From Escherichia phage LH01, in the sequence record PP434429: DNA of 64,000 nt; one strand, written 5' to 3'. Of the stretch, positions 2,520 through 33,438 are shown in pieces (position 1 is the first letter of the stretch; the number at the start of each line of letters is the position of its first letter). Position numbers and translations under genes: made by a program. The notes below the pieces were generated by a model, which made no database searches, was not told where the DNA came from, and worked only from the letters and a program-made list of their open reading frames with translations.

Positions 2520-2840
2520 TTACGCTGTGAAGATTTTATCCCACATCGCAACAACTGCATCTCGGTTATACTTCTTCCATACCGCTTCAGCACGTTTAAC
2601 TCGAGCTTCGTATGTGTCAGTGAATTCTAATACAGCTTTTGTGTAAAGCGCAACTACTTCTTTCTTAGGAGTAGAGGAATCAATTTCTACACGCACAGTA
2701 TCTGGGTCGTATTCGAATGTCGCATGAGGATAATCCTTAAAAACTAACTGGATTACAGGGACACCTTTAGAGATGGCTTCAATAGAACTATTCTCTACCG
2801 TACCTGTGTCAGGACACGTATTGATAAGTGCTTTAGCTGT
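2520..2840 (-). pseudogene. C-terminal glycosyltransferase fragment in alternate frame (continuation of 2795..3619)
   Basis: 106 sense codons ending at TAA 2520-2522 with no ATG/GTG/TTG near the 5' end; encodes ...VENSSIEAISKGVPVIQLVF..., a GT-B C-terminal signature; overlaps the upstream ORF in a different frame over about 2798-2840. Confidence 0.5.
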
Positions 2841-3619
2841 TTAAGACGTTCCATGATTTCACTGTGTGGAGCATCAATAATAACAGGATACTTAGCCGGT
2901 GGTGCCCATTTACTAGGACAGTATCCTACACCATTTTCGCCTAGTGCTTTAATCGCTTCAAGAGCAACATCAGTACGACGCATTTTAGTGTCATAACGTT
3001 GTGCACTAATAATCAGATCAGTCGCCGGAAGAACTTCAGGTTTATCATTCAAACAAATAACCGGATAATCTTCGGCTTCAAACAACGGATTTGCTCGCCA
3101 ATAATCATAATCAATTTTGTCAGTCAGACCTGAAGTCATATAACAATATTTGCGTTCAAATTCACGGAAGGCTTTAGTAGGAGCATAACTCTTACCACCG
3201 TTCTTATGAATTTGAATAGTCTGGTCCCAAATTTGAACAATGCCACGAGACACCGGTTCAAATGGTGTTGCCATAAAATTCTTATGAACTTTAGAGAGAC
3301 CCGCGTCTTTAATTGCCTGAACGGTTAGTTTGGTCGGTTCCATTGTAACAACGAAATCGTACTCATTAATGCCGGCTAGTTCAACAATCTTACGAGCCAT
3401 AGTATAACTCATACCTAGACTGAATTTAGTCAGATGACCAACAGGATGATGATTAACCTTCCAGTCACCAAACGTGTCATTATCAAAGCCGATATAATCA
3501 ATATCAGCACCGATGGACACAAGATATTTCAATACATTTAAATGTACTGCTTCAAGACCACCTTGTACACGTTCTGGGTTAAATGGGACTGCGCGAGATG
3601 GGATAAACATAACTTTCAT
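2795..3619 (-). CDS. glycosyltransferase-like protein, N-terminal portion of a frame-interrupted gene
   Basis: 274-aa ORF, ATG at 3619; Rossmann-like half typical of GT-B enzymes; frame terminates at TAG 2795 while the C-terminal GT motif continues in another frame. Confidence 0.55.
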   Translation of the reverse strand: MKVMFIPSRAVPFNPERVQGGLEAVHLNVLKYLVSIGADIDYIGFDNDTFGDWKVNHHPVGHLTKFSLGMSYTMARKIVELAGINEYDFVVTMEPTKLTVQAIKDAGLSKVHKNFMATPFEPVSRGIVQIWDQTIQIHKNGGKSYAPTKAFREFERKYCYMTSGLTDKIDYDYWRANPLFEAEDYPVICLNDKPEVLPATDLIISAQRYDTKMRRTDVALEAIKALGENGVGYCPSKWAPPAKYPVIIDAPHSEIMERLKQLKHLSIRVLTQVR

Positions 3620-24687: not shown

Positions 24688-25587
24688 TTATTCCTCGATT
24701 ACGACATCTTCGTATTTAGGTATATTATACGGTGAAGAAATTAAAGCATTAAAGTAGATGAACTCACCAAGACCTGGATGGAATACTTCTTCAGGATTTT
24801 CGAAATATTGAATTTTCGGACGTCCTTTAAGAATTTGATAGTACTCAGTTTTAGTTGGTTTAAAAATTCGAATCAGCGCTTCTTCAGGATACTTATTTCT
24901 GTCGAAGCTATTATTTGGATCGGTTATATAAAGCGGTTGACCTAATTGAATTGCACATTCAACCACTTGTTCAAAACGATAACATGGGTCACTAATTCGA
25001 AATGGATGAAAAATACCATCTAGATGAATAGGAGCCAAATCACCTACAAGACGCTGCATGATGGAAGGACGTATAACTTTCTGAGTTACGATAATCTTAT
25101 TACCATCTGCACCGGCGTTAACCAGCACTTCTTTTTGACGTTCATTCAACACAGTAGTTTGAAGTGAACGATTAACCGACAACATATCGGTTTTTAAGAA
25201 TTCGTCAATATAAAAACGTGGTTTATTAGGGTCTGCCGTGATATTGAAATTGAATTCTACATCAAAAGCGCCGTCATATCCAGTGATATCTGTTATTAGA
25301 AAATCACAATCATAATAAGCAATTAATGAATCAACCACAAATTCATTTTCAGACCAGAAATATTTACGAGTGTTATACGCGTTATCTTTATACCATAATG
25401 GAACAAACTTAAATTCTGGGAAAAGACGTTCACATTCTTTAATATCAGATGCATTACGTGGATATGTAATCACATCACCCGGATTAGCACGGTGCAAATG
25501 AAGTTGGAAGTTGCCATCCTTAAGGATAGCATACTGTCCAGTTTCATAAGACCGCATACTCAAGATAGGTACGCGGAAAATAGCCAT
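24688..25587 (-). CDS. hypothetical protein translationally coupled to gene 42 (candidate DNA-modification enzyme)
   Basis: 299-aa ORF whose ATG overlaps the gene 42 stop (TAATG); occupies the locus where T4 has beta-gt; no recognisable motif. Confidence 0.55.
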   Translation of the reverse strand: MAIFRVPILSMRSYETGQYAILKDGNFQLHLHRANPGDVITYPRNASDIKECERLFPEFKFVPLWYKDNAYNTRKYFWSENEFVVDSLIAYYDCDFLITDITGYDGAFDVEFNFNITADPNKPRFYIDEFLKTDMLSVNRSLQTTVLNERQKEVLVNAGADGNKIIVTQKVIRPSIMQRLVGDLAPIHLDGIFHPFRISDPCYRFEQVVECAIQLGQPLYITDPNNSFDRNKYPEEALIRIFKPTKTEYYQILKGRPKIQYFENPEEVFHPGLGEFIYFNALISSPYNIPKYEDVVIEE

Positions 25588-26303
25588 TAGTCAAGGAATC
25601 CTTTAACATAATCAAAATCACGTTCAAACACATGGGCACTTACCATGGTATGAGTATAATCACCAACTTCTACACCACATTCGTTAGCGATATAATGAAG
25701 TAATTTTCCTTGGAGATAAAAATCCAACTGCATAACAACAGCACAGTTCTGAGAACGCATATGACAGTGGGTATAAAGCTTACCATCACGAATATAATAA
25801 GTTACTGAGTCAGTACATGGATATTCAAGTGTTTCGTCCGAATCAAGCAAAGCCTGATCAGAACTTTCTAGAATTTGGAACACAACTCTTCGGGAGTTAG
25901 GCTTCTCTTTAAGTTCTTTTAGAAGAGCTGGTAATTGGGCCGCAATGCGAGGACCATAGAAAGTGTTGAAGTTCGCCGGCAAAACATCTGATTTTGGTTT
26001 AGAAATAAATTTAGCGACATTAGGATATGCCTTAAACGCTTCTTCTGCGTTGGTACCACCAGAAATCATAAACTTCCAGAAGTCTTCGGCATATTCATAA
26101 GAGATGCGGTTAATACGTGGGTCGGTCATTTTGAATGATGATGGAGTGTCAACAACTACTGTCATAGACCCAATTTCATTACAACGTCCAATACGAGAAT
26201 CAGTTACGAATTCGGGGTTTTCTAAAATTTCACGATTGACTGCTTTAAATGCGGTTTGAAAATCTGCGGCTTTGATATATTTCATTGTGTTATGTTTTCC
26301 CAT
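25587..26303 (-). CDS. 42: dCMP hydroxymethylase (thymidylate-synthase fold)
   Basis: 238-aa ORF; TS-like catalytic region EYPCTDS...HMRSQN with Asp where TS has Asn (QLDFY) by my alignment; position between uvsX and 43. Confidence 0.65.
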   Translation of the reverse strand: MGKHNTMKYIKAADFQTAFKAVNREILENPEFVTDSRIGRCNEIGSMTVVVDTPSSFKMTDPRINRISYEYAEDFWKFMISGGTNAEEAFKAYPNVAKFISKPKSDVLPANFNTFYGPRIAAQLPALLKELKEKPNSRRVVFQILESSDQALLDSDETLEYPCTDSVTYYIRDGKLYTHCHMRSQNCAVVMQLDFYLQGKLLHYIANECGVEVGDYTHTMVSAHVFERDFDYVKGFLD

Positions 26304-26345
26304 GTTTACCTCAATACAATTTATTATATACTCAATTCATAAAGC

Positions 26346-26585
26346 TTATTTGAATTTCTTGGCAATGTTGATATAACGTAAAGCTTCAGAATCTATACTT
26401 CCAAGAACACTATGAAGGAATGCATCAGTGTAGTATTCCAATTGAACAGGTTCTTTAATCACTTTAGCCGCTTTGGTTTCAAACAGGCCCATAAGGGCCT
26501 TTTTAAGAATTTGTTCGTTAGTGTTCAGTTTCATAGTCAAAATCTCTTTGTTAAGTTTATAATTAAAACTTTTTCTAGAAATCAT
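26346..26585 (-). CDS. hypothetical small protein
   Basis: 79-aa ORF from the track. Confidence 0.35.
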   Translation of the reverse strand: MISRKSFNYKLNKEILTMKLNTNEQILKKALMGLFETKAAKVIKEPVQLEYYTDAFLHSVLGSIDSEALRYINIAKKFK

Positions 26586-27751
26586 TCCGGGTACCTCAAA
26601 GCGTCATCAGAGTTAGTTATATCAATAATAGATATGGAGTTTTCTGCTAACCCGTTTTTAGATAATTGACGTTTATAATACCTTTCACAATATGTACACG
26701 TTGACCCACAGATTTCATTAGCACAATCAAAATCTGGATGTCTGAACCACCTTTTTTCTAAAAAGCCATCTAACAAAGAGGTTTCAATATTTACTGTATG
26801 TGAAAACTCAGTCTCATTTTCAAGAGTGAAAATAGTCTCTAAAGGCTTCCACAGTTCTAACAAATTACCTTCAAACTTTTCAGAAGCGTATGCTTCAAGA
26901 ACTTTCAAAATGTAGTCTGTGCTACCTGTACGTCCTGAAACTTTGAATTGAGTGATACCAATATCATTATAAAGTTTCAAATCTTGAGGACGAACAAAAC
27001 GAGTTCTCAACCAGTTAAATGGGTCTGTATCACGAGCTTTAATGCAGTGTTGCATTGGATATCCATTTAAGGATTTAGCATCATCAGCTGTAACATCAGT
27101 ACTATGGAAAATATAGCAAGAGTCACGATAACTGCAATGTGTTGTATACCCTTTACCAGCATTAGAACAGAACTCATTTACAAGAACTTCAAATATTATA
27201 TTGTTCTTATTGCAAAACTCTGCTGCACGCTTCAGGAAAGAAACTGAACGGTTCTTATGAATTCCACAGCAGACCTTTTTGATATTGTATTGGTCATGTA
27301 AGTATTTTATTTGAGTTACAGCATCGACATGTAGAATTGTTGAAACTTCAATCTCAATGTCTTTATTGACTTCACGAACAATTTCCATAACAACAGGGTT
27401 AGCGATAGTAATACGCCATACGCCTATTGACCAAAGATACTGAACATAATCCTGAATAGCTTTCTTCTTCCACTCGACTAGTTCTCTTTTTGAACCAGGA
27501 TTTATCGTGTTGAGTGTATAGTTAAAGCAAATACCTAATTCGTTACAACGTTTAACGTAATCTTCTAACATCTTTTTGTCAACGTCAGGAAGCCTAAAAT
27601 CAGGTCTGGCTGCTACAAAAGCCATTTCTCTTGTAGAGCCGTATACTTCGTTTATCAAGCTGTTAGGATAAGTTTTATTGAGCTCTACGATTTTATCAAG
27701 AAGAGCTAAATCAAAATTCGTTCCGATTTTAAAAGTATTCATTTTTTGCAT
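26582..27751 (-). CDS. Cys-rich protein of unknown function (candidate modification enzyme)
   Basis: 389-aa ORF; C-terminal CGSTCTYC (CxxxCxxC) plus further conserved-looking Cys; no confident family call. Confidence 0.55.
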   Translation of the reverse strand: MQKMNTFKIGTNFDLALLDKIVELNKTYPNSLINEVYGSTREMAFVAARPDFRLPDVDKKMLEDYVKRCNELGICFNYTLNTINPGSKRELVEWKKKAIQDYVQYLWSIGVWRITIANPVVMEIVREVNKDIEIEVSTILHVDAVTQIKYLHDQYNIKKVCCGIHKNRSVSFLKRAAEFCNKNNIIFEVLVNEFCSNAGKGYTTHCSYRDSCYIFHSTDVTADDAKSLNGYPMQHCIKARDTDPFNWLRTRFVRPQDLKLYNDIGITQFKVSGRTGSTDYILKVLEAYASEKFEGNLLELWKPLETIFTLENETEFSHTVNIETSLLDGFLEKRWFRHPDFDCANEICGSTCTYCERYYKRQLSKNGLAENSISIIDITNSDDALRYPE

Positions 27752-27797: not shown

Positions 27798-28184
27798 TTA
27801 TAGATTCGGTTTATATGATTTAAATGTTTCGAATTCGCCTTTATTCATAAGAGCTTTGAATTCGTCAGGACGCATAGCTTTGTCGTCGATAATCCAATCA
27901 TATACTGGTTTATGTGTTAGCAAATTATGGTACTTCAAGCCAATGTTTGCCAAGTTCTGAATCAGACTTGGGAGAATGTCAATTGCTATACGACCAGGAC
28001 CTACTGACTTCATACCACGAGCAGTGTAAAGCGTTATGGTATGCCCTGCATCATACAGGGCATTAATGGCAGACACCATTTCGACGTCTGGTTTGAAGTT
28101 CACGTAATCACGATTGTTATTCCACTCTGTTATACAATCATCGACATCAAAACAAAGATTAAGCATGTTTTCTACACGGTGCAT
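27798..28184 (-). CDS. HAD-superfamily phosphatase (small, KdsC-like size)
   Basis: start at ATG for MHRVENMLNLCFDVDDCIT (HAD motif I DxDx[T/C]); later LYTARG and DWIIDDKA motifs; ATG overlaps the upstream stop. Confidence 0.6.
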   Translation of the reverse strand: MHRVENMLNLCFDVDDCITEWNNNRDYVNFKPDVEMVSAINALYDAGHTITLYTARGMKSVGPGRIAIDILPSLIQNLANIGLKYHNLLTHKPVYDWIIDDKAMRPDEFKALMNKGEFETFKSYKPNL

Positions 28185-29869
28185 TAGATTCGTTCCCATT
28201 GATGAGTGATATCGCCACCGATTGGACGATAGGAAACACCAGTTTCTTTATCAGTTAGTACCCATTTACCAGGATTTTTTGTAATCAGAGTAGCCGTTAC
28301 AGGTTCTGCTACGTCATAACTAATAGAGCCGTCTTGAAGTACACGGCCCATGTTGCGTAATTGCTTAGTCAGAAGTTCCATACCTTTATAATATGCGGCT
28401 ACCGCTTTAAGTGGATTATTCTTGAAATAACCACCTAATGCAATCCAGATAATTGCCACCGCCAAATGATGATACTCGTTAAACGAACTCATCTTTCCAT
28501 ATTTGTAAATTAATGGATTGATGTTAATAGTCACATTACAAGTTGTTTCATCAATAGTAAACTGTCCCCAGGTCGGATTAGCATTGAATTCATCATAACC
28601 TGAAACGGCATAAAGCACTTTAGCTTCATCATACAATTTTGGCCCGTAAATCTTGGTTTCGCCAAAATATCCACGAGGGTCGATAAACTTGACTTCGCCG
28701 TTATCAGTAATCATAGTATTACTGAAGTTCGGGTCACCATGAATAACAGAGTACTGTCCCTGAGAACGATTATGATAACGAATAAGGTGTTCTAAAGCTT
28801 GTTTCAGCATTGGCTTCAGACGTCCAATCTTAGTGTAGTTCACATGTGTGATTTTACCAAATGAATCAATCAATGGTTGAATACTTTCACAACGATCAAT
28901 AACTTTCGTATAGAATTCTTTAGTGAAATCACGACGAACAGTTTCAGGACTTACAAAATACGTGTCTGTGCTGAATTTCAGTGCATCTAAAATTGCATCA
29001 ACAATTTGTGGACGAGCAAGACTTGATTTGGATTTAATATATTCAAATGCCGGCTTACCTTTAATGCGTTCCATTTCAAAGTTATTTTCATTAACAGAAA
29101 CTAACTGAGGAACTGAATCTGATTTCACTTTCAAATACCACGAAATCTCATCTTTCTGAAGAGCTCGTCCCTGTTCGGTTAATGCGAATTTAGTTACAGT
29201 TTCTTCACCAATTTCAACTGCATTAAAACTACGATTAAGTTCACGAACTTCATGAGCTTTTTCAAGTTTAGGCATATCACCTAAATCAATTAGATTCATA
29301 AGCTCTGATTTATTGAATGCGCCGCTGTAAAGGAATTCTACGAAATCACGTCCTTTGCAGTATTCATGAATTTCCTCATCGGTAGAACCCATATAGAATT
29401 CCCAGTCTTTGAACTGATAAATTCCTACAACATTACCACCTGTTGAACCTACGTTAGTGATATTTTCACCGTCGAAATTATACCGACATTCGTCACCCTT
29501 AACATAGATTGCGTTAACATTCCAAGACCATGAACCAAAATCAGGAATAATATCACACCAGTTAACAATTACATTATGGCCATCTAAATCTTTGTGTAAT
29601 TTAGCAAGAGCATAAGCAGAACCATACGCTTCATCAACTGTACGAATAGTCACATTGAACCCTTCTTGCTCACAATAAGCTCGAACAGTTTCAGCAAATT
29701 TTGAATGAACTACTACAATAATTTCATCTGCGCCAAGGTCAGAATAAATTGTATACAAATTGCTCAGAATAGTGTCTTGTTTATAGTTAACAAGCACCTT
29801 AGGAATATGATGCGTTATTGGATACAAACGAGTTGCCAGTCCAGCACCAAGAATAACAGCTTTTTTCAT
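28184..29869 (-). CDS. bifunctional sugar-1-phosphate nucleotidyltransferase / sugar kinase (APH-ChoK-like)
   Basis: 561-aa ORF; N-terminus ILGAGLATRLYPIT...PKVLV (NTP-transferase signature); C-terminus VIHGDPNFSNTMI...FIDPRGYFG (Brenner HGD-N and DFG-like motifs of APH/choline-kinase fold). Confidence 0.75.
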   Translation of the reverse strand: MKKAVILGAGLATRLYPITHHIPKVLVNYKQDTILSNLYTIYSDLGADEIIVVVHSKFAETVRAYCEQEGFNVTIRTVDEAYGSAYALAKLHKDLDGHNVIVNWCDIIPDFGSWSWNVNAIYVKGDECRYNFDGENITNVGSTGGNVVGIYQFKDWEFYMGSTDEEIHEYCKGRDFVEFLYSGAFNKSELMNLIDLGDMPKLEKAHEVRELNRSFNAVEIGEETVTKFALTEQGRALQKDEISWYLKVKSDSVPQLVSVNENNFEMERIKGKPAFEYIKSKSSLARPQIVDAILDALKFSTDTYFVSPETVRRDFTKEFYTKVIDRCESIQPLIDSFGKITHVNYTKIGRLKPMLKQALEHLIRYHNRSQGQYSVIHGDPNFSNTMITDNGEVKFIDPRGYFGETKIYGPKLYDEAKVLYAVSGYDEFNANPTWGQFTIDETTCNVTININPLIYKYGKMSSFNEYHHLAVAIIWIALGGYFKNNPLKAVAAYYKGMELLTKQLRNMGRVLQDGSISYDVAEPVTATLITKNPGKWVLTDKETGVSYRPIGGDITHQWERI

Positions 29870-29910: not shown

Positions 29911-30054
29911 CTAGTTAAAGCATTCATACTTTGCTTGTAGTCCAATCATAGTCCATCCGATTATAAGAGTCGGAATCATTACTGGAGCCGTTAAGCTCCA
30001 GTAGATAGTCATGACAAGCATCAATAGTAAAAGTCCTATTGTTATTGCTTTCAT
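29911..30054 (-). CDS. small membrane protein
   Basis: 47-aa ORF below the track threshold (MKAITIGLLLLMLVMTIYW...); ATG overlaps the SIS gene stop (ATGA). Confidence 0.35.
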   Translation of the reverse strand: MKAITIGLLLLMLVMTIYWSLTAPVMIPTLIIGWTMIGLQAKYECFN

Positions 30055-30686
30055 TGCTCGCCTCGTAACATGGCACCTAGTGCACCGCCTGGATGGAACT
30101 TAAGGAAATCATTAGAGGTAAATCCACGTTCAGACGAAAGGTTGATAGCAAAAGTATCGATAAGCGCTAACAATAATGTAGTGGACATAGTCGGAGCCAG
30201 AGAATTCTCATCAACCTCTACTGCGATGCCTGTACAGAACGTATAATCAAAAAGAGCTTCGTATTCTTGTGGAATGTCTGGGTTACAATGCAACAGAATC
30301 TGTTTGACGTTCGGACGAATCATTTTAAGATGCTTAGCCACGCCTATCATTTCTTCAGTTTTACCAGAACGACTAATATGAATCAACACATCATTAGGCG
30401 CAATGAATCCTGCATCACCGTGAGAATAATGCCCAGTGTTCAAGTACATACTCGGGATACCGAGTGAAGCAAATGTCTCAGAAGCTTTAGTTGCAATATT
30501 AGCATTCTTACCAACACCTGTAATAATTACTCGGCTTTCATAATTACTAAGTCCAGGGCGTCGAAGAGTTTCTAGAATAGCATTATAACGAGCAGGGTTT
30601 TGACTAATTACTTTGGCCATAGCGGCCAAAGAAGAAGCTTGTTTTATGATTGCGTCAATAGCGATATTAATAGGAGTAGTTTTCAT
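30051..30686 (-). CDS. SIS-domain sugar-phosphate isomerase, KdsD/GutQ-type (single domain)
   Basis: 211-aa ORF; ITGVGKNANIATKA...HGDAG...ISRSGKTEE...APTMSTT...HPGGALG matches the arabinose-5-phosphate isomerase SIS pattern; no CBS domains. Confidence 0.75.
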   Translation of the reverse strand: MKTTPINIAIDAIIKQASSLAAMAKVISQNPARYNAILETLRRPGLSNYESRVIITGVGKNANIATKASETFASLGIPSMYLNTGHYSHGDAGFIAPNDVLIHISRSGKTEEMIGVAKHLKMIRPNVKQILLHCNPDIPQEYEALFDYTFCTGIAVEVDENSLAPTMSTTLLLALIDTFAINLSSERGFTSNDFLKFHPGGALGAMLRGEQ

Positions 30687-30726: not shown

Positions 30727-33438
30727 TCAAAAATCGAACATATCGAAGAGAGATGCTTTCTTCTCGTAATCGAGTTTCGCTGCTGATGTGAATCCTTCAA
30801 GTGGTTTAATAAATGTCTTCTCAAGGAGAACAGTGTAGTCCATCCAATGAAGTACGTCGTCTTTAATTAAATCTGTGATTTCAGTACCAGAAGGCCATGC
30901 GATACATTTATCACCGAATGGGTTTCCTTCACGTAAAGGCAGAACATATACTTTTTCACCTTCTACAACTTGTGGAGCATCAATATTACCTTTGATAGCT
31001 CGGTTATATGTCAGAATTCCACGAATATGGAACGGACATTTAGGACCAGGGAATCCACCAACGTCATATTTAGCAATGTTATTCGCAGAAGATACCGACG
31101 CGATGCTAATATAATTCAATTGACGGAATTCTTTTTCAAACTCTTTAAAATATTCTTGTAATGATTCTTCACCTTCTTGAAGCATACGGCGAATACATTC
31201 TTTAAGAGCTTTCTGTACTGCTTTAGGGGTCGAAGATTTCTGTGTTTCGAGACCCATGATTTTGAGTTTAGGCTCAGCGTATCTGGTTCCTTCCATATCC
31301 CACACGTTTAATGCATAACGTTTCTTACCAGTCCAGAATCCGCCAATACCTTTAGAACCGAGTGGAGGACCAGCGATAGCTTCTCGGTCCATGAACATTA
31401 AGTGTTGTTTATTGTTCATGTATTCACACATTTCACGGAAACCTCTATCAATAGCCGGTTCCATACGTTCACGAGCGAACTTATCTAAGAAGTCTACCCA
31501 ATGGTTGGTATCACGGAATTTAGATTCACCAACCTTATCAATAATTTTATCTGCAGATACGTAAATAGAGTCTGTATCACCATAAAGAACGAAAGCTTCA
31601 CCTTCTGTACCACAAACTTCGTTCAGATATTCATTAACTTTACGTTCAATCCACTGTAAAGCCATTTGCCCGAATGTTGTGATTGCAGTAGCATTACGCA
31701 AATCATAATAACGGAACCAAACGTTGCCAAGTGCACCATAAAGTGAGTTGATAAGCAATTTACGGTTAATTTGTGCAGTCATACCTGCAACTTCAGTACG
31801 TTGAGCTCTAAACAACATTTCATTAAGAGATTTAGCAGACAACTTTTTAATCTTTTCTTTAATCTCATCGCTGAAGTCGAAACGATAATCAACATCTAAT
31901 GGTTCGTCAACAGAAAGATTAGGATTATGCAATGCCTCTTTAATTATTTCACCATTACGTTGAGCAGCAAGCATATAACCTTTATGTTCTTTACGTTGAT
32001 TAAAGACTTTAGTGATTTCGGTTGGAACTACACCATCACGGTCTTTATAATACATCATGCCGTTAGGAGAACAACTGTACACATCTGAAGGACGTTCAGC
32101 GATTGCGTTAATATAATCATGCAGTGGAGCTACTTTAAACGTTCCTGCTATTGTTTCCGGGCTAATATTCACTTGGCGAATAATACTTGGATACAGGGAT
32201 GTAAGGTCGAAACTCATTACATATTTGTATCGATTTGGAATAGGTTCCTTAACAAAAGCACCGGGATAAGGTTGAACCGGGTGAGAACGACCTTGTGGAA
32301 TCACCTTGCTCTGCTCTTTAAGGCTATTAAAAATAATAGCATCCCATGTTTTAATTGGGCTAAACACAGATTGAATCTGTATCTTAGCATAATAACCCAT
32401 GTCCAAACTCAAGTTGATGAACTGACGCTTAGCATCAATTTGCAATACACGATACACGTCGATAATGTTATAAGAAATATACCGTTGGTGATTGCTTTCA
32501 CGAAGCTTAGAAATAGGGCCGTCATATTTCAGTTTACCAACGTTCAATTCAAATTCTGAAATGTAATCCAGAGAATACGACGGTTGATTGGTAAAAGAGA
32601 ATTTTTTGTAAAGGTCGATATAATCAAGAACAGAGATACCGAACAATGTAATGATTTCACGAGAACCATACATGTTTTCGATAACTTTAACACGAGTTTT
32701 ACGATGTGGTGATAAACGTTTCGCAGTAGATTCGCCAAAAATATTCTTGATTCGGTTATACACATATGGAATATCAAATGACTCAACGTTCCATCCAGTC
32801 AAAATGACAGGAGTTTTCTGTTGCCAGAAGTTGAGATATTCCATCAACAATTCTTTTTCGTTATCGAACGGCATATAAATGATTTTATCGATAATTTCGG
32901 ATGGAACTTCATCACCACCTTGTTCTTGAAGCTTAGCCGCAATTTCGATAGACCATTCTTCTACATTACCGTATGGAGAATTCAAAAGGTCAAATACATA
33001 AAACCTGTCATCAATTGAGTCATAATGGGTGATAGCATCAATCGGATGTTTTGCTTGTGACGGCTCAGGGAACCCGTCCGGAGATGTTACTTCGATGTCG
33101 AAGTTAGCCACACGAATTTTTGTATGGTCGTATTTGATTTCATAGTTATAAGTGTCAGACAAATACGCCAATTTGAAATCGTCCATGCCAAGTGCTTCAA
33201 GTCCGATATCTTCCATGCGTTTAATCCATTGGGAGGCATCACGCATATTAGCGAACAACTTACGAGTGCACGGCTTACCGTAGATATCGAAATATTTCGT
33301 AGCCTGACTTTCTGGACAATGAGCAAACAGTGATGGTTTATATTCTACTTCACGAGTACGTTCACGGCCATTAGAATCGATGTAACGTTCAAAAATTGAA
33401 TCACCAATCTGTTCAACCGTTAGGTAAAATTCTTTCAT
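30727..33438 (-). CDS. 43: DNA polymerase (family B) with 3'-5' exonuclease
   Basis: 903-aa ORF; exo motifs (FDIEV, YNIIDV), pol motifs DLTSLYPSII, KxxxNSLYG, YGDTDS; sequence reads like RB69 gp43 from memory. Confidence 0.95.
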   Translation of the reverse strand: MKEFYLTVEQIGDSIFERYIDSNGRERTREVEYKPSLFAHCPESQATKYFDIYGKPCTRKLFANMRDASQWIKRMEDIGLEALGMDDFKLAYLSDTYNYEIKYDHTKIRVANFDIEVTSPDGFPEPSQAKHPIDAITHYDSIDDRFYVFDLLNSPYGNVEEWSIEIAAKLQEQGGDEVPSEIIDKIIYMPFDNEKELLMEYLNFWQQKTPVILTGWNVESFDIPYVYNRIKNIFGESTAKRLSPHRKTRVKVIENMYGSREIITLFGISVLDYIDLYKKFSFTNQPSYSLDYISEFELNVGKLKYDGPISKLRESNHQRYISYNIIDVYRVLQIDAKRQFINLSLDMGYYAKIQIQSVFSPIKTWDAIIFNSLKEQSKVIPQGRSHPVQPYPGAFVKEPIPNRYKYVMSFDLTSLYPSIIRQVNISPETIAGTFKVAPLHDYINAIAERPSDVYSCSPNGMMYYKDRDGVVPTEITKVFNQRKEHKGYMLAAQRNGEIIKEALHNPNLSVDEPLDVDYRFDFSDEIKEKIKKLSAKSLNEMLFRAQRTEVAGMTAQINRKLLINSLYGALGNVWFRYYDLRNATAITTFGQMALQWIERKVNEYLNEVCGTEGEAFVLYGDTDSIYVSADKIIDKVGESKFRDTNHWVDFLDKFARERMEPAIDRGFREMCEYMNNKQHLMFMDREAIAGPPLGSKGIGGFWTGKKRYALNVWDMEGTRYAEPKLKIMGLETQKSSTPKAVQKALKECIRRMLQEGEESLQEYFKEFEKEFRQLNYISIASVSSANNIAKYDVGGFPGPKCPFHIRGILTYNRAIKGNIDAPQVVEGEKVYVLPLREGNPFGDKCIAWPSGTEITDLIKDDVLHWMDYTVLLEKTFIKPLEGFTSAAKLDYEKKASLFDMFDF

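What the first reader, a model, noticed from the sequence alone, without database searches (positions are those of the whole stretch)
30051..30686. Single-domain KdsD/GutQ-type arabinose-5-phosphate isomerase in a phage
The 211-aa protein has the SIS motifs of arabinose-5-P isomerases (GVGKN..IATKA, HGDAG, SRSGKTEE, APTMSTT, HPGGALG) but lacks the tandem CBS domains of canonical KdsD. It sits immediately upstream of the DNA polymerase gene, with a 47-aa membrane ORF coupled to its stop. This points to a pentose rather than hexose donor for DNA modification.
Basis: partly seen in the sequence, partly recalled or inferred. Interest (0 to 1): 0.6.

Follow-up and report, generated by a model that had tools for sequence, protein, structure and literature searches.

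The report
Phage arabinose-5-phosphate isomerase, already known

Summary
Window 30051..30686 (minus strand) encodes a 211-aa protein with one SIS domain, no CBS domains and every quoted motif. A 47-aa membrane ORF starts in an ATGA overlap with its stop.

The window is an RB69-like Mosigvirus, and the protein is 98.6% identical to RB69 ORF055c (gp55). Sequence, profile and fold comparisons all place it with arabinose-5-phosphate isomerases (KdsD, GutQ, c3406, B. fragilis API) and not with GmhA or DiaA. The five KdsD active-site residues are invariant across 22 phage homologues.

It heads a module of kinase/nucleotidyltransferase, HAD phosphatase, ThyA-like dCMP hydroxylase and glycosyltransferase. 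Published work assigns this module to UDP-arabinofuranose synthesis and arabinosylation of 5-hydroxycytosine.

Corrections:
- The gene lies downstream of the polymerase gene in the direction of transcription.
- The modified base is 5-hydroxycytosine, not hydroxymethylcytosine.
- The 47-aa ORF is a T-even backbone gene, also present in T4.
- Shewanella phage Thanatos has the module but no isomerase, so the gene is accessory.

Verdict: correct and already known. No paper I could read has assayed the enzyme. Side observations on the neighbouring U32 gene and on four-domain fusion proteins may be newer.

The parts
30051..30686 (-). Single-SIS-domain arabinose-5-phosphate isomerase, the orthologue of RB69 ORF055c/gp55 (211 aa). 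Predicted reaction: D-ribulose-5-P <-> D-arabinose-5-P.
   Evidence: ORF; Pfam SIS only; NCBIfam KpsF/GutQ, KdsD, GutQ; PHROG 5670 at 2.8e-116; PDB sequence hits 3etn, 5uqi, 2xhz; hhalign to KdsD 99.8%; Foldseek top hits are APIs; 98.6% identical to RB69 gp55; K60, H89, E112, E157, H198 invariant in 22 homologues.
29911..30054 (-). 47-aa hydrophobic (membrane) ORF whose ATG overlaps the isomerase stop (ATGA). It is a conserved T-even backbone gene and not part of the arabinose pathway.
   Evidence: ORF and overlap; PHROG 3610 at 6e-27; tblastn hits in 577 phage records, including glucosylating T4-like phages; follows imm with the same overlap in vB_EcoM_RZ and in T4, where it is unannotated; the RB69 record calls ORF054c 'similar to T4 42-imm intercistronic region'.
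28184..29869 (-). 561-aa bifunctional protein: N-terminal sugar-1-P nucleotidyltransferase plus C-terminal kinase-like domain. Orthologue of RB69 gp52:53 and equivalent to HY126 AfhE. Predicted steps: Ara-5-P -> Ara-1,5-P2, and Ara-1-P + UTP -> UDP-Araf.
   Evidence: Pfam NTP_transferase 8.5e-10 plus weak kinase families; NCBIfam nucleotidyltransferases; about 99% identical to RB69 gp52 and gp53 as one continuous ORF; function as described in PMC13326640.
27798..28199 (-). HAD-type sugar phosphatase, orthologue of RB69 gp51 and equivalent to AfhF. The RB69-equivalent start is at 28184. Predicted step: Ara-1,5-P2 -> Ara-1-P.
   Evidence: NCBIfam TIGR01689 capsule biosynthesis phosphatase 4.3e-13; PHROG 1238; 99.2% identical to RB69 gp51; role as described in PMC13326640.
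26582..27751 (-). U32 'peptidase'-family protein, orthologue of RB69 gp50. Function unproven; see the items noticed in passing.
   Evidence: Pfam Peptidase_U32 7.4e-11; 99.2% identical to RB69 gp50; 221 phage records, all >= 80% identical.
25587..26303 (-). Thymidylate-synthase homologue, orthologue of RB69 gp48. Published as the flavin- and O2-dependent 5-hydroxy-dCMP synthase.
   Evidence: Pfam Thymidylat_synt 2.3e-15; 99.2% identical to RB69 gp48; PMC13326640.
24688..25587 (-). 299-aa orthologue of RB69 gp46:47, proposed in the literature as the first DNA arabinosyltransferase.
   Evidence: tblastn with RB69 gp46 (100%) and gp47 (98.9%) maps them to one continuous ORF; assignment from PMC13326640. 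No Pfam hit.
2523..3619 (-). Orthologue of RB69 ORF003c/gp3 (proposed second arabinosyltransferase). In this window it is split by a 1-nt deletion (A3 instead of A4) near 2825-2840.
   Evidence: tblastn maps residues 1-265 and 261-366 to two different frames; DNA alignment with RB69; the closest records are all 1 nt longer over this stretch.

Best explanation
The gene encodes a stand-alone (CBS-less) D-arabinose-5-phosphate isomerase.

Proposed mechanism: during infection the enzyme pulls D-ribulose-5-phosphate out of the host pentose-phosphate pathway and converts it to D-arabinose-5-phosphate. The 5-phosphate keeps the sugar in the furanose form. The next genes finish the activation. The 561-aa kinase/nucleotidyltransferase phosphorylates C1. 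The HAD phosphatase removes the 5-phosphate. The nucleotidyltransferase domain then makes UDP-arabinofuranose. Phage glycosyltransferases put one or two arabinoses on 5-hydroxycytosine in phage DNA, which blocks host nucleases.

The logic is isomerase, then kinase, then phosphatase, then nucleotidyltransferase. This is a pentose version of the ADP-heptose pathway.

The host already makes arabinose-5-P with KdsD and GutQ, and at least one arabinosylating relative lacks the gene. The phage copy is therefore best seen as an auxiliary flux booster and not as an indispensable step.

What is shown here: family placement, conserved catalytic residues, fold, orthology to RB69 gp55, and linkage or fusion with the downstream enzymes. 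What is inferred: the enzymatic activity itself, the flux-boosting role, and co-transcription with gene 43.
For: - Family placement: best matches are APIs in NCBIfam, PDB sequences, hhalign (KdsD 99.8%, E 2.9e-28) and Foldseek (5uqi, which is c3406 with bound A5P, then 2xhz and 3etn).
- Catalytic residues: the equivalents of KdsD K59, H88, E111, E152 and H193 are K60, H89, E112, E157 and H198. They are invariant in 22 homologues that are 40-80% identical. K60 and D91 are absent from the Listeria SIS protein 3fxa, which I recall was reported as a glucose-6-P isomerase.
- Orthology: 98.6% identity to RB69 gp55, with the whole RB69 gp45-gp55 module colinear.
- Linkage beyond T4-like phages: in a 310-kb viral contig a 47%-identical SIS gene sits two genes from the kinase/nucleotidyltransferase.
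- Fusions: 900-955-aa proteins join HAD, SIS, nucleotidyltransferase and kinase in one chain, and their SIS part is 32% identical to the phage protein.
- Literature: arabinose is in RB69 DNA and ORF055c was named as a candidate (PMC6024577). Arabinosyl-5-hydroxycytosine and the proposed Ru5P to UDP-Araf route through gp55, gp52:53 and gp51, with AfhE and AfhF of phage HY126 characterised biochemically, are in PMC13326640.
Against: - No enzymatic assay of this protein or a close homologue appears in any paper I could read.
- Scores fall below the curated NCBIfam cut-offs for KpsF/GutQ, KdsD and GutQ, because those models include the CBS pair.
- Shewanella phage Thanatos-1 has the kinase/nucleotidyltransferase, U32, ThyA homologue and glycosyltransferase but no SIS gene anywhere in its genome. 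Coliphage JS10 has none within 7 kb of its module. The gene is therefore not required for the pathway as such.
- SIS-family substrate specificity cannot be read with certainty from sequence.
Confidence: 0.85

Rival explanations
1. The protein is a sugar-phosphate isomerase with a different substrate, for example glucose-6-P/fructose-6-P as I recall was reported for the Listeria SIS protein 3fxa, or a heptose phosphate as for GmhA. It would then feed some other sugar.
For: 3fxa is among the sequence and fold hits (E 2.6e-13). The downstream HAD and kinase/nucleotidyltransferase resemble the ADP-heptose pathway enzymes, and database records mislabel the HAD as 'phosphoheptose isomerase'.
Against: The hits to true APIs are much stronger. 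The API residues K60 and D91 are present here but replaced in 3fxa. GmhA similarity is negligible. Chemical analyses of RB69 and phage NP DNA find arabinose (PMC6024577, PMC13326640, PMC13390438).
Confidence: 0.07
2. The enzyme makes arabinose-5-P for Kdo, and so manipulates host LPS or capsule (for example for superinfection exclusion) instead of phage DNA.
For: That is the canonical role of KdsD, KpsF and GutQ (PMC10448790). The gene occupies the slot that holds the superinfection-immunity genes imm.1 and imm in T4.
Against: No KdsA, KdsB or KdsC homologues were noted in the module. The gene is linked or fused to a kinase, HAD phosphatase and nucleotidyltransferase that activate the sugar at C1. 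The module also carries the dCMP hydroxylase and DNA glycosyltransferases.
Confidence: 0.05
3. It is a non-catalytic SIS protein, such as a DiaA-like DnaA binder or an RpiR-type ligand sensor, acting in replication control next to the polymerase gene.
For: It sits next to the replication genes 43, regA, 62 and 44. There are weak NCBIfam hits to the SIS domains of HexR/RpiR regulators (E 1e-6 to 1e-3) and a 30-residue BLAST match to DiaA (E 0.002).
Against: All five API catalytic residues are invariant across the family. There is no DNA-binding domain. DiaA similarity is confined to 25 columns. Regulator hits are 20 to 25 orders of magnitude weaker than API hits.
Confidence: 0.02

Closest known systems
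RB69 ORF055c / gp55 and its orthologues (PHROG 5670; DLP3 gp83)
   Same: 98.6% identical over all 211 residues, with the same position and neighbours. It is proposed in the literature as the arabinose-5-P isomerase that starts UDP-arabinofuranose synthesis for arabinosyl-5-hydroxycytosine (PMC6024577, PMC13326640).
   Different: Nothing of substance. This is the same gene in a different Mosigvirus isolate. The nearest record over this stretch, LF82-1, is 99.0% identical in DNA.
Single-domain bacterial APIs: E. coli CFT073 c3406 (PDB 5uqi) and Bacteroides fragilis API (PDB 3etn)
   Same: A stand-alone SIS domain of about 200 aa without CBS domains. These are the best sequence and fold matches (E 5e-25 and 6e-23, TM up to 0.90), and the catalytic residues are shared.
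   Different: Only about 30% identity. In the all-library search the phage family forms its own group of 14 representatives at E <= 1e-30, followed by a score gap. The bacterial enzymes serve Kdo, capsule or genomic-island functions (from memory), not DNA modification.
Canonical KdsD / GutQ / KpsF (TIGR00393)
   Same: The same SIS catalytic domain: 40% identity to KdsD and 35% to GutQ over about 160 residues. All of K59, H88, E111, E152 and H193 are conserved.
   Different: It lacks the C-terminal tandem CBS domains that define the canonical architecture (PMC10448790). It scores below the curated cut-offs. Its genomic context is DNA modification and not LPS, capsule or the gut operon.
ADP-heptose pathway (GmhA isomerase, HldE kinase/adenylyltransferase, GmhB HAD phosphatase)
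   Same: The same four-step logic with the same enzyme superfamilies: a SIS isomerase, a kinase at C1, a HAD phosphatase that removes the distal phosphate, and a nucleotidyltransferase. This pathway is established knowledge. The analogy of gp51 to GmhB is noted in PMC13326640.
   Different: The substrate is a pentose, not a heptose. The isomerase belongs to the API branch, not the GmhA branch. The kinase is APH/choline-kinase-like, which from memory differs from the ribokinase-like kinase of HldE. The product is used on DNA.

Membership tests
Arabinose-5-phosphate isomerase clade of SIS proteins (KdsD, GutQ, KpsF, c3406, B. fragilis API) | SIS fold | tested here: met
   Pfam PF01380 at 1.5e-10. 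An AlphaFold2 model with pLDDT 93.8 superposes on 5uqi, 2xhz and 3etn with target-normalised TM 0.81-0.91.
Arabinose-5-phosphate isomerase clade of SIS proteins (KdsD, GutQ, KpsF, c3406, B. fragilis API) | Closest relatives by sequence and profile are APIs rather than other SIS families | tested here: met
   NCBIfam top three hits are KpsF/GutQ, KdsD and GutQ. PDB hits at E <= 0.001 are 3etn, 5uqi, 2xhz and 3fxa only. hhalign gives KdsD 99.8% and GutQ 99.3%.
Arabinose-5-phosphate isomerase clade of SIS proteins (KdsD, GutQ, KpsF, c3406, B. fragilis API) | Active-site residues equivalent to E. coli KdsD K59, H88, E111, E152 and H193. The residue list is recalled from the 2xhz study; the 2xhz chain does carry K59A. 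| tested here: met
   K60, H89, E112, E157 and H198 align to them and are invariant in 22 phage homologues.
Arabinose-5-phosphate isomerase clade of SIS proteins (KdsD, GutQ, KpsF, c3406, B. fragilis API) | Catalyses D-ribulose-5-P <-> D-arabinose-5-P | not testable with these tools
   This needs an enzyme assay or complementation of an E. coli kdsD gutQ mutant. No such assay was found in the papers I could read.
Canonical KdsD/GutQ/KpsF family (NCBIfam TIGR00393, NF008141, NF008581) | SIS domain followed by tandem CBS domains | tested here: not met
   The protein is 211 aa, Pfam finds SIS only, and the sequence ends 7 residues after HPGGALG. Matches cover only model positions 2-153 of 268.
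Canonical KdsD/GutQ/KpsF family (NCBIfam TIGR00393, NF008141, NF008581) | Whole-protein score above the curated cut-off | tested here: not met
   112.7 against 203.7, 106.9 against 505, and 79.9 against 481 bits.
GmhA (sedoheptulose-7-phosphate isomerase) | Profile or sequence similarity to GmhA exceeding that to APIs | tested here: not met
   No NCBIfam hit. hhalign probability 1.4%, and the only BLASTP match to GmhA is 9 residues at E 9.3. Foldseek rank 35 or lower with TM 0.54-0.57.
DiaA (DnaA initiator-associating SIS protein) | Full-length similarity to DiaA | tested here: not met
   hhalign probability 28% over 25 columns only, and BLASTP E 0.002 over 30 residues. No NCBIfam hit.
Phage arabinosyl-5-hydroxycytosine DNA modification module (RB69 gp45-gp55 type) | Orthology and synteny with RB69 gp55 and with the kinase/nucleotidyltransferase, HAD phosphatase, ThyA-like hydroxylase and glycosyltransferase genes | tested here: met
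   RB69 gp45-gp55 all map colinearly at 88.6-100% amino-acid identity (gp49 88.6%, gp54 94.4%, the others 98.6-100%), and gp43 at 99.8%. Domain content confirmed.
Phage arabinosyl-5-hydroxycytosine DNA modification module (RB69 gp45-gp55 type) | Virion DNA carries arabinosylated 5-hydroxycytosine | not testable with these tools
   Shown chemically for RB69, DLP3 and NP in PMC13326640 and PMC13390438. Not determinable for the source of this window.

The most novel reading that the evidence does not exclude
The isomerase-led pathway may not be confined to T4-like phages. The same four activities are fused into single 900-955-aa polypeptides in the order HAD phosphatase, API-type SIS, nucleotidyltransferase, kinase. 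One of these lies on a 103-kb contig whose neighbours (Rpb2, Rpb10, a MutS with an HNH domain) look like a giant virus. Another comes from a slime-mould (Ceratiomyxa) transcriptome. If these fusions make NDP-D-arabinofuranose from ribulose-5-P, there is an unrecognised D-arabinose activation route in eukaryotic viruses or eukaryotes, and the phage gene is its unfused form.
Probability: 0.4. Interest if true: 0.5.

Novelty: already known. Interest (0 to 1): 0.15.

Why it matters
The gene explains where RB69-type phages get the pentose for their arabinosylated DNA, a modification that defeats many restriction and CRISPR nucleases. That connection has been in the literature since 2018 and was refined in 2025-2026, so this finding only re-derives it from raw sequence.

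Three points are still open:
- The enzyme activity itself appears unassayed in the papers I could read.
- It is unclear why some arabinosylating phages do without the gene.
- It is unknown whether losing the CBS pair frees the enzyme from host feedback control.

The neighbouring U32 gene and the fusion proteins are likelier sources of new biology than the isomerase.

Tried and rejected
- Origin of the phage family. I tried to decide whether it arose from single-domain APIs or from a KdsD that lost its CBS pair. A neighbour-joining tree of 95 sequences over 163 columns put mostly ~200-aa proteins next to the phage clade, but bootstrap support was 0-43% for all the deeper nodes, so I draw no conclusion.
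- Own promoter. The consensus scan found fewer promoter-like sites than in shuffled sequence and none between gene 43 and the SIS gene. No terminator-like site lies there either. Co-transcription with gene 43 therefore remains an inference.
- The 79-aa ORF at 26346..26585. I tested whether it is a diverged chorismate mutase like the gene in the same slot of Serratia phage LC53. Results were negative: no Pfam hit even at E 10, no BLASTP similarity, and hhalign probability 0.2%. Its homologues are Mosigvirus-only and often truncated.
- Fe-S ligands of the U32 protein. BLASTP and MAFFT alignment to E. coli UbiU and UbiV were too weak to map them.
- Key papers. He et al. 2026 (Nat Chem Biol) and Mahler et al. 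2025 (Cell Host Microbe) are not held. A search for further 'Afh' gene names returned only unrelated papers, and a search for the single-domain API literature returned nothing.
- Rejected readings: GmhA, DiaA and regulator-type SIS proteins.
Full report
**What is there**

Window 30051..30686 on the minus strand is a 211-aa ORF. Pfam finds one SIS domain (residues 51-181, E 1.5e-10) and nothing else, and the protein ends 7 residues after HPGGALG, so there are no CBS domains.

A 47-aa hydrophobic ORF (29911..30054, minus) starts in an ATGA overlap with the isomerase stop codon.

The DNA polymerase gene is at 30727..33438, also on the minus strand. The SIS gene therefore lies 40 nt downstream of it in the direction of transcription. 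It is 'upstream' only in window coordinates.

**Where the window comes from**

The 4.5 kb around the gene is 95-99% identical to more than 150 Escherichia and Shigella T4-like phage records. Many of them already label this gene 'arabinose 5-phosphate isomerase'.

Mapping the RB69 proteins onto the window shows gp45 to gp55 and gp43 colinear. Most are 98.6-100% identical at the amino-acid level; gp49 is 88.6% and gp54 is 94.4%. The SIS protein is 98.6% identical to RB69 ORF055c. The original RB69 record already described ORF055c as 'similar to bacterial polysialic acid capsular expression protein GutQ'.

**Which SIS family**

- NCBIfam: the best hits are the KpsF/GutQ subfamily (2.3e-32), KdsD (1.2e-30) and GutQ (1.7e-22). 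The next hits are 16 or more orders of magnitude weaker, and GmhA and DiaA are absent. All scores fall below the curated cut-offs because the matches cover only the SIS half of models that include the CBS pair.
- PHROGs: family 5670, 'arabinose 5-phosphate isomerase', at 2.8e-116.
- PDB sequences: the only hits at E <= 0.001 are 3etn (B. fragilis single-domain API), 5uqi (E. coli CFT073 c3406), 2xhz (KdsD SIS domain) and 3fxa (a Listeria SIS protein).
- Profile comparison: I fetched E. coli K-12 kdsD, gutQ, gmhA and diaA and compared them with a profile of 22 phage homologues. hhalign gives KdsD 99.8% (E 2.9e-28, 186 columns), GutQ 99.3%, GmhA 1.4%, and DiaA 28% over 25 columns. BLASTP identity is 40% to KdsD and 35% to GutQ.
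- Fold: an AlphaFold2 model (pLDDT 93.8, pTM 0.89) searched against the PDB returns 5uqi (c3406 with bound arabinose-5-P), 2xhz, 3etn and 3fxa as the top nine chains. GmhA first appears at rank 35 with TM about 0.55.

**Catalytic residues**

The residues probed in the KdsD active-site study behind 2xhz are, from memory, K59, H88, E111, E152 and H193. The 2xhz chain does carry Ala at position 59 where native KdsD has Lys.

These residues align to K60, H89, E112, E157 and H198 of the phage protein. All five are invariant in 22 phage-type homologues that are only 40-80% identical to the query.

K60 and D91 are replaced in 3fxa, which I recall was reported as a glucose-6-P isomerase. That argues for true API specificity but does not prove it.

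**Context and mechanism**

Downstream on the same strand, tightly packed, lie:

- the 47-aa ORF;
- a 561-aa nucleotidyltransferase plus kinase-like protein (28184..29869);
- a HAD phosphatase (27798..28199);
- a U32-family protein (26582..27751);
- a 79-aa ORF (26346..26585);
- a thymidylate-synthase homologue (25587..26303);
- a 299-aa ORF equivalent to RB69 gp46:47 (24688..25587);
- a 182-aa ORF orthologous to RB69 ORF045c, which Lee et al. list as thymidylate-kinase-like (Pfam finds nothing).

Thomas et al. 2018 found arabinose in RB69 DNA and named ORF055c and ORF53_52c as candidates for UDP-arabinose synthesis (PMC6024577).

Lee et al. 2026 showed that the base is arabosylated 5-hydroxycytosine, mono- and poly-arabinosylated. 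The base is made by the ThyA homologue gp48 with flavin and O2. They proposed the route Ru5P to Araf-5-P (gp55), to Araf-1,5-P2 (gp52:53 kinase), to Araf-1-P (gp51), to UDP-Araf (gp52:53 nucleotidyltransferase). They cite biochemical work on the HY126 enzymes AfhE and AfhF by He et al. 2026 (PMC13326640). In that paper gp55 is a structure-based prediction only.

PMC13390438 confirms mono- and di-arabinosyl-dC in another Mosigvirus.

**Independent support found here**

- In a 310-kb viral contig, a 47%-identical SIS gene sits two genes upstream of a kinase/nucleotidyltransferase homologue.
- Homologues of the 561-aa protein include 900-955-aa proteins that fuse HAD, SIS, nucleotidyltransferase and kinase in one chain. 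Their SIS part is 32% identical to the phage protein and keeps the GxGK, HGD, E..E and HPGG motifs. This is Rosetta-stone evidence that the four activities form one pathway.

**Is the gene required?**

By tblastn the SIS gene is in 275 phage records, while the kinase/nucleotidyltransferase is in 368.

Shewanella phage Thanatos-1, which Lee et al. describe as mono-arabinosylated, has the kinase/nucleotidyltransferase (54% identity), U32 (82%), ThyA homologue and glycosyltransferase. It has no SIS homologue anywhere in its 160.6-kb genome, by tblastn or by profile search. Coliphage JS10 has none within 7 kb of its module.

Gram-negative hosts make arabinose-5-P for Kdo (PMC10448790). I therefore infer that the phage enzyme supplements the host supply.

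A rough estimate supports this. About 63,000 cytosines per genome (37% GC), nearly two arabinoses each, and a burst of 100-200 phages imply roughly 10^7 arabinose units per infected cell. From memory of typical LPS numbers, that is several-fold more than the Kdo a cell makes per generation. This is inference, not measurement.

**The 47-aa ORF**

It belongs to PHROG 3610 and occurs in 577 phage records, including glucosylating T4-like phages.

- In vB_EcoM_RZ it follows imm with a 4-nt overlap.
- In T4 an unannotated 49-aa ORF (T4 coordinates 26227-26376) with the same C-terminal KYEC motif fills the 'gap' between imm and gene 42. It again has an ATGA overlap.
- The RB69 record notes ORF054c as 'similar to T4 42-imm intercistronic region'.

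It is a backbone gene translationally coupled to whatever lies upstream, not a component of the sugar pathway. In RB69-type phages imm.1 and imm have moved elsewhere, and the isomerase occupies their slot.

**Comparison and novelty**

The protein is a member of the API clade of SIS proteins, and specifically of the CBS-less kind already known from c3406 and B. fragilis. It is not a member of the canonical SIS+CBS KdsD/GutQ/KpsF family as those models define it.

In the all-library search the phage-type family stands apart: 14 representatives at E <= 1e-30, then a gap. After the gap come mixed ~200-aa and ~320-aa proteins. A tree could not resolve its origin.

The gene, its predicted function and its role in a pentose DNA modification are all published. 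The finding is correct but already known.

**Side observations**

1. The U32 'peptidase' gene next to the module.
   - It is strikingly conserved: at least 80% identity in all 221 phage records, and 82% between coliphage and Shewanella phage, where the neighbouring kinase/nucleotidyltransferase is only 54%.
   - The host genera named in the search output are all, from general knowledge, facultative anaerobes. Acinetobacter phages, which account for 57 records with the rest of the module, are not in the top-10 organism list, and a count of 57 would have placed them there.
   - In Serratia phage LC53 and 53 other records it is followed, with overlapping codons in LC53, by a bona fide chorismate mutase gene (PF01817, 1.7e-11).
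   - U32 relatives include RlhA (required for 5-hydroxycytidine in rRNA; PMC5727448) and TrhP (tRNA uridine hydroxylation; PMC6599085). Both papers came up only as search results. From memory, TrhP depends on prephenate, and UbiU/UbiV are O2-independent hydroxylases.
   - This suggests an anaerobic route to 5-hydroxycytosine that would complement the O2-dependent ThyA homologue. No paper in the library makes this link. Lee et al. list gp50 as 'sugar or heterocycle reductase'. It is a hypothesis only.
2. One HAD-SIS-nucleotidyltransferase-kinase fusion lies on a 103-kb contig among Rpb2, Rpb10 and MutS-HNH genes. That looks like a giant virus. Another is from a Ceratiomyxa transcriptome.
3. The second arabinosyltransferase gene, the RB69 gp3 orthologue, is frameshifted in this window by a 1-nt deletion in an A4 run. 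None of the closest records shares the deletion.

Noticed in passing
window 26582..27751 (-); L014 5992..7502; L009 11428..12818: The U32 'peptidase' gene (RB69 gp50 orthologue) is at least 80% identical in all 221 phage records that have it, and 82% identical to the copy in Shewanella phage Thanatos, where the neighbouring kinase/nucleotidyltransferase is only 54%. The host genera named are, from general knowledge, facultative anaerobes, and Acinetobacter phages that carry the rest of the module do not appear among them. In 54 records (LC53, CHI14, Klebsiella, Yersinia, Proteus and Thanatos phages, among others) a chorismate mutase type II gene follows it directly. U32 relatives RlhA, TrhP and UbiU/V are hydroxylases that, from memory, work without O2 and use prephenate. 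This may therefore be an anaerobic route to 5-hydroxycytosine.
   Followed up: partly
L006 4228..4377 (-), which is T4 NC_000866 26227..26376; window 29911..30054 (-): T4 has an unannotated 49-aa membrane ORF (MKSKIIAALLLILMIIISIYYSVTVPLMIPTIILGWSLLLLQVKYECIN) in the 'intergenic' gap between imm and gene 42, with its ATG overlapping the imm stop. It is homologous to the 47-aa ORF coupled to the isomerase here and occurs in 577 phage records, mostly unannotated.
   Followed up: yes
P0204, P0208, P0209, P0211, P0212, P0216, P0229; L015 8001..10781: Single polypeptides of 900-955 aa fuse HAD phosphatase, API-type SIS, nucleotidyltransferase and kinase domains. One sits on a 103-kb contig of assembly GCA_013558355.1 among Rpb2, Rpb10, MutS-HNH and protein-kinase genes, which looks like a giant virus. 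Another comes from the Ceratiomyxa fruticulosa EukProt transcriptome.
   Followed up: partly
window 2523..3619 (-), indel near 2825..2840: The orthologue of RB69 ORF003c/gp3 (proposed second DNA arabinosyltransferase) is split into two frames by a 1-nt deletion, CTTAAACAG against CTTAAAACAG in RB69. All 12 closest records listed are 1 nt longer over this stretch. The deleted variant has no exact match in IMG/VR, while the intact variant has 3. It is either a sequencing error or an isolate expected to make only mono-arabosylated DNA.
   Followed up: partly
L009, L011, L012, L013 (Shewanella phage Thanatos-1, whole genome); L010 (coliphage JS10): Thanatos-1 carries the kinase/nucleotidyltransferase, U32, chorismate mutase, ThyA homologue and glycosyltransferase, but no SIS isomerase anywhere in its genome. 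JS10 (Dhakavirus) has the module without SIS or U32 within 7 kb. The isomerase is therefore an accessory part of the module.
   Followed up: yes
window 27798..28199 (-): The HAD-type phosphatase (RB69 gp51 orthologue; TIGR01689 capsule biosynthesis phosphatase) is labelled 'phosphoheptose isomerase' in PHROG 1238 and in many GenBank records. It has no SIS domain, so this is a propagated misannotation.
   Followed up: partly
window 26346..26585 (-): The 79-aa ORF between the U32 gene and the ThyA homologue occupies the slot that holds chorismate mutase in other genera, but shows no detectable similarity to it. It is restricted to Mosigvirus, is much less conserved than its neighbours (88.6% identical to RB69 against about 99%), and is often truncated to 49-58 aa in relatives.
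   Followed up: yes
window 28184..29869 (-) and 24688..25587 (-): The gene pairs annotated as split in the RB69 GenBank record (ORF052c/053c and ORF046c/047c) are single uninterrupted ORFs of 561 and 299 aa here. This agrees with the published view that the RB69 splits are sequencing errors.
   Followed up: yes
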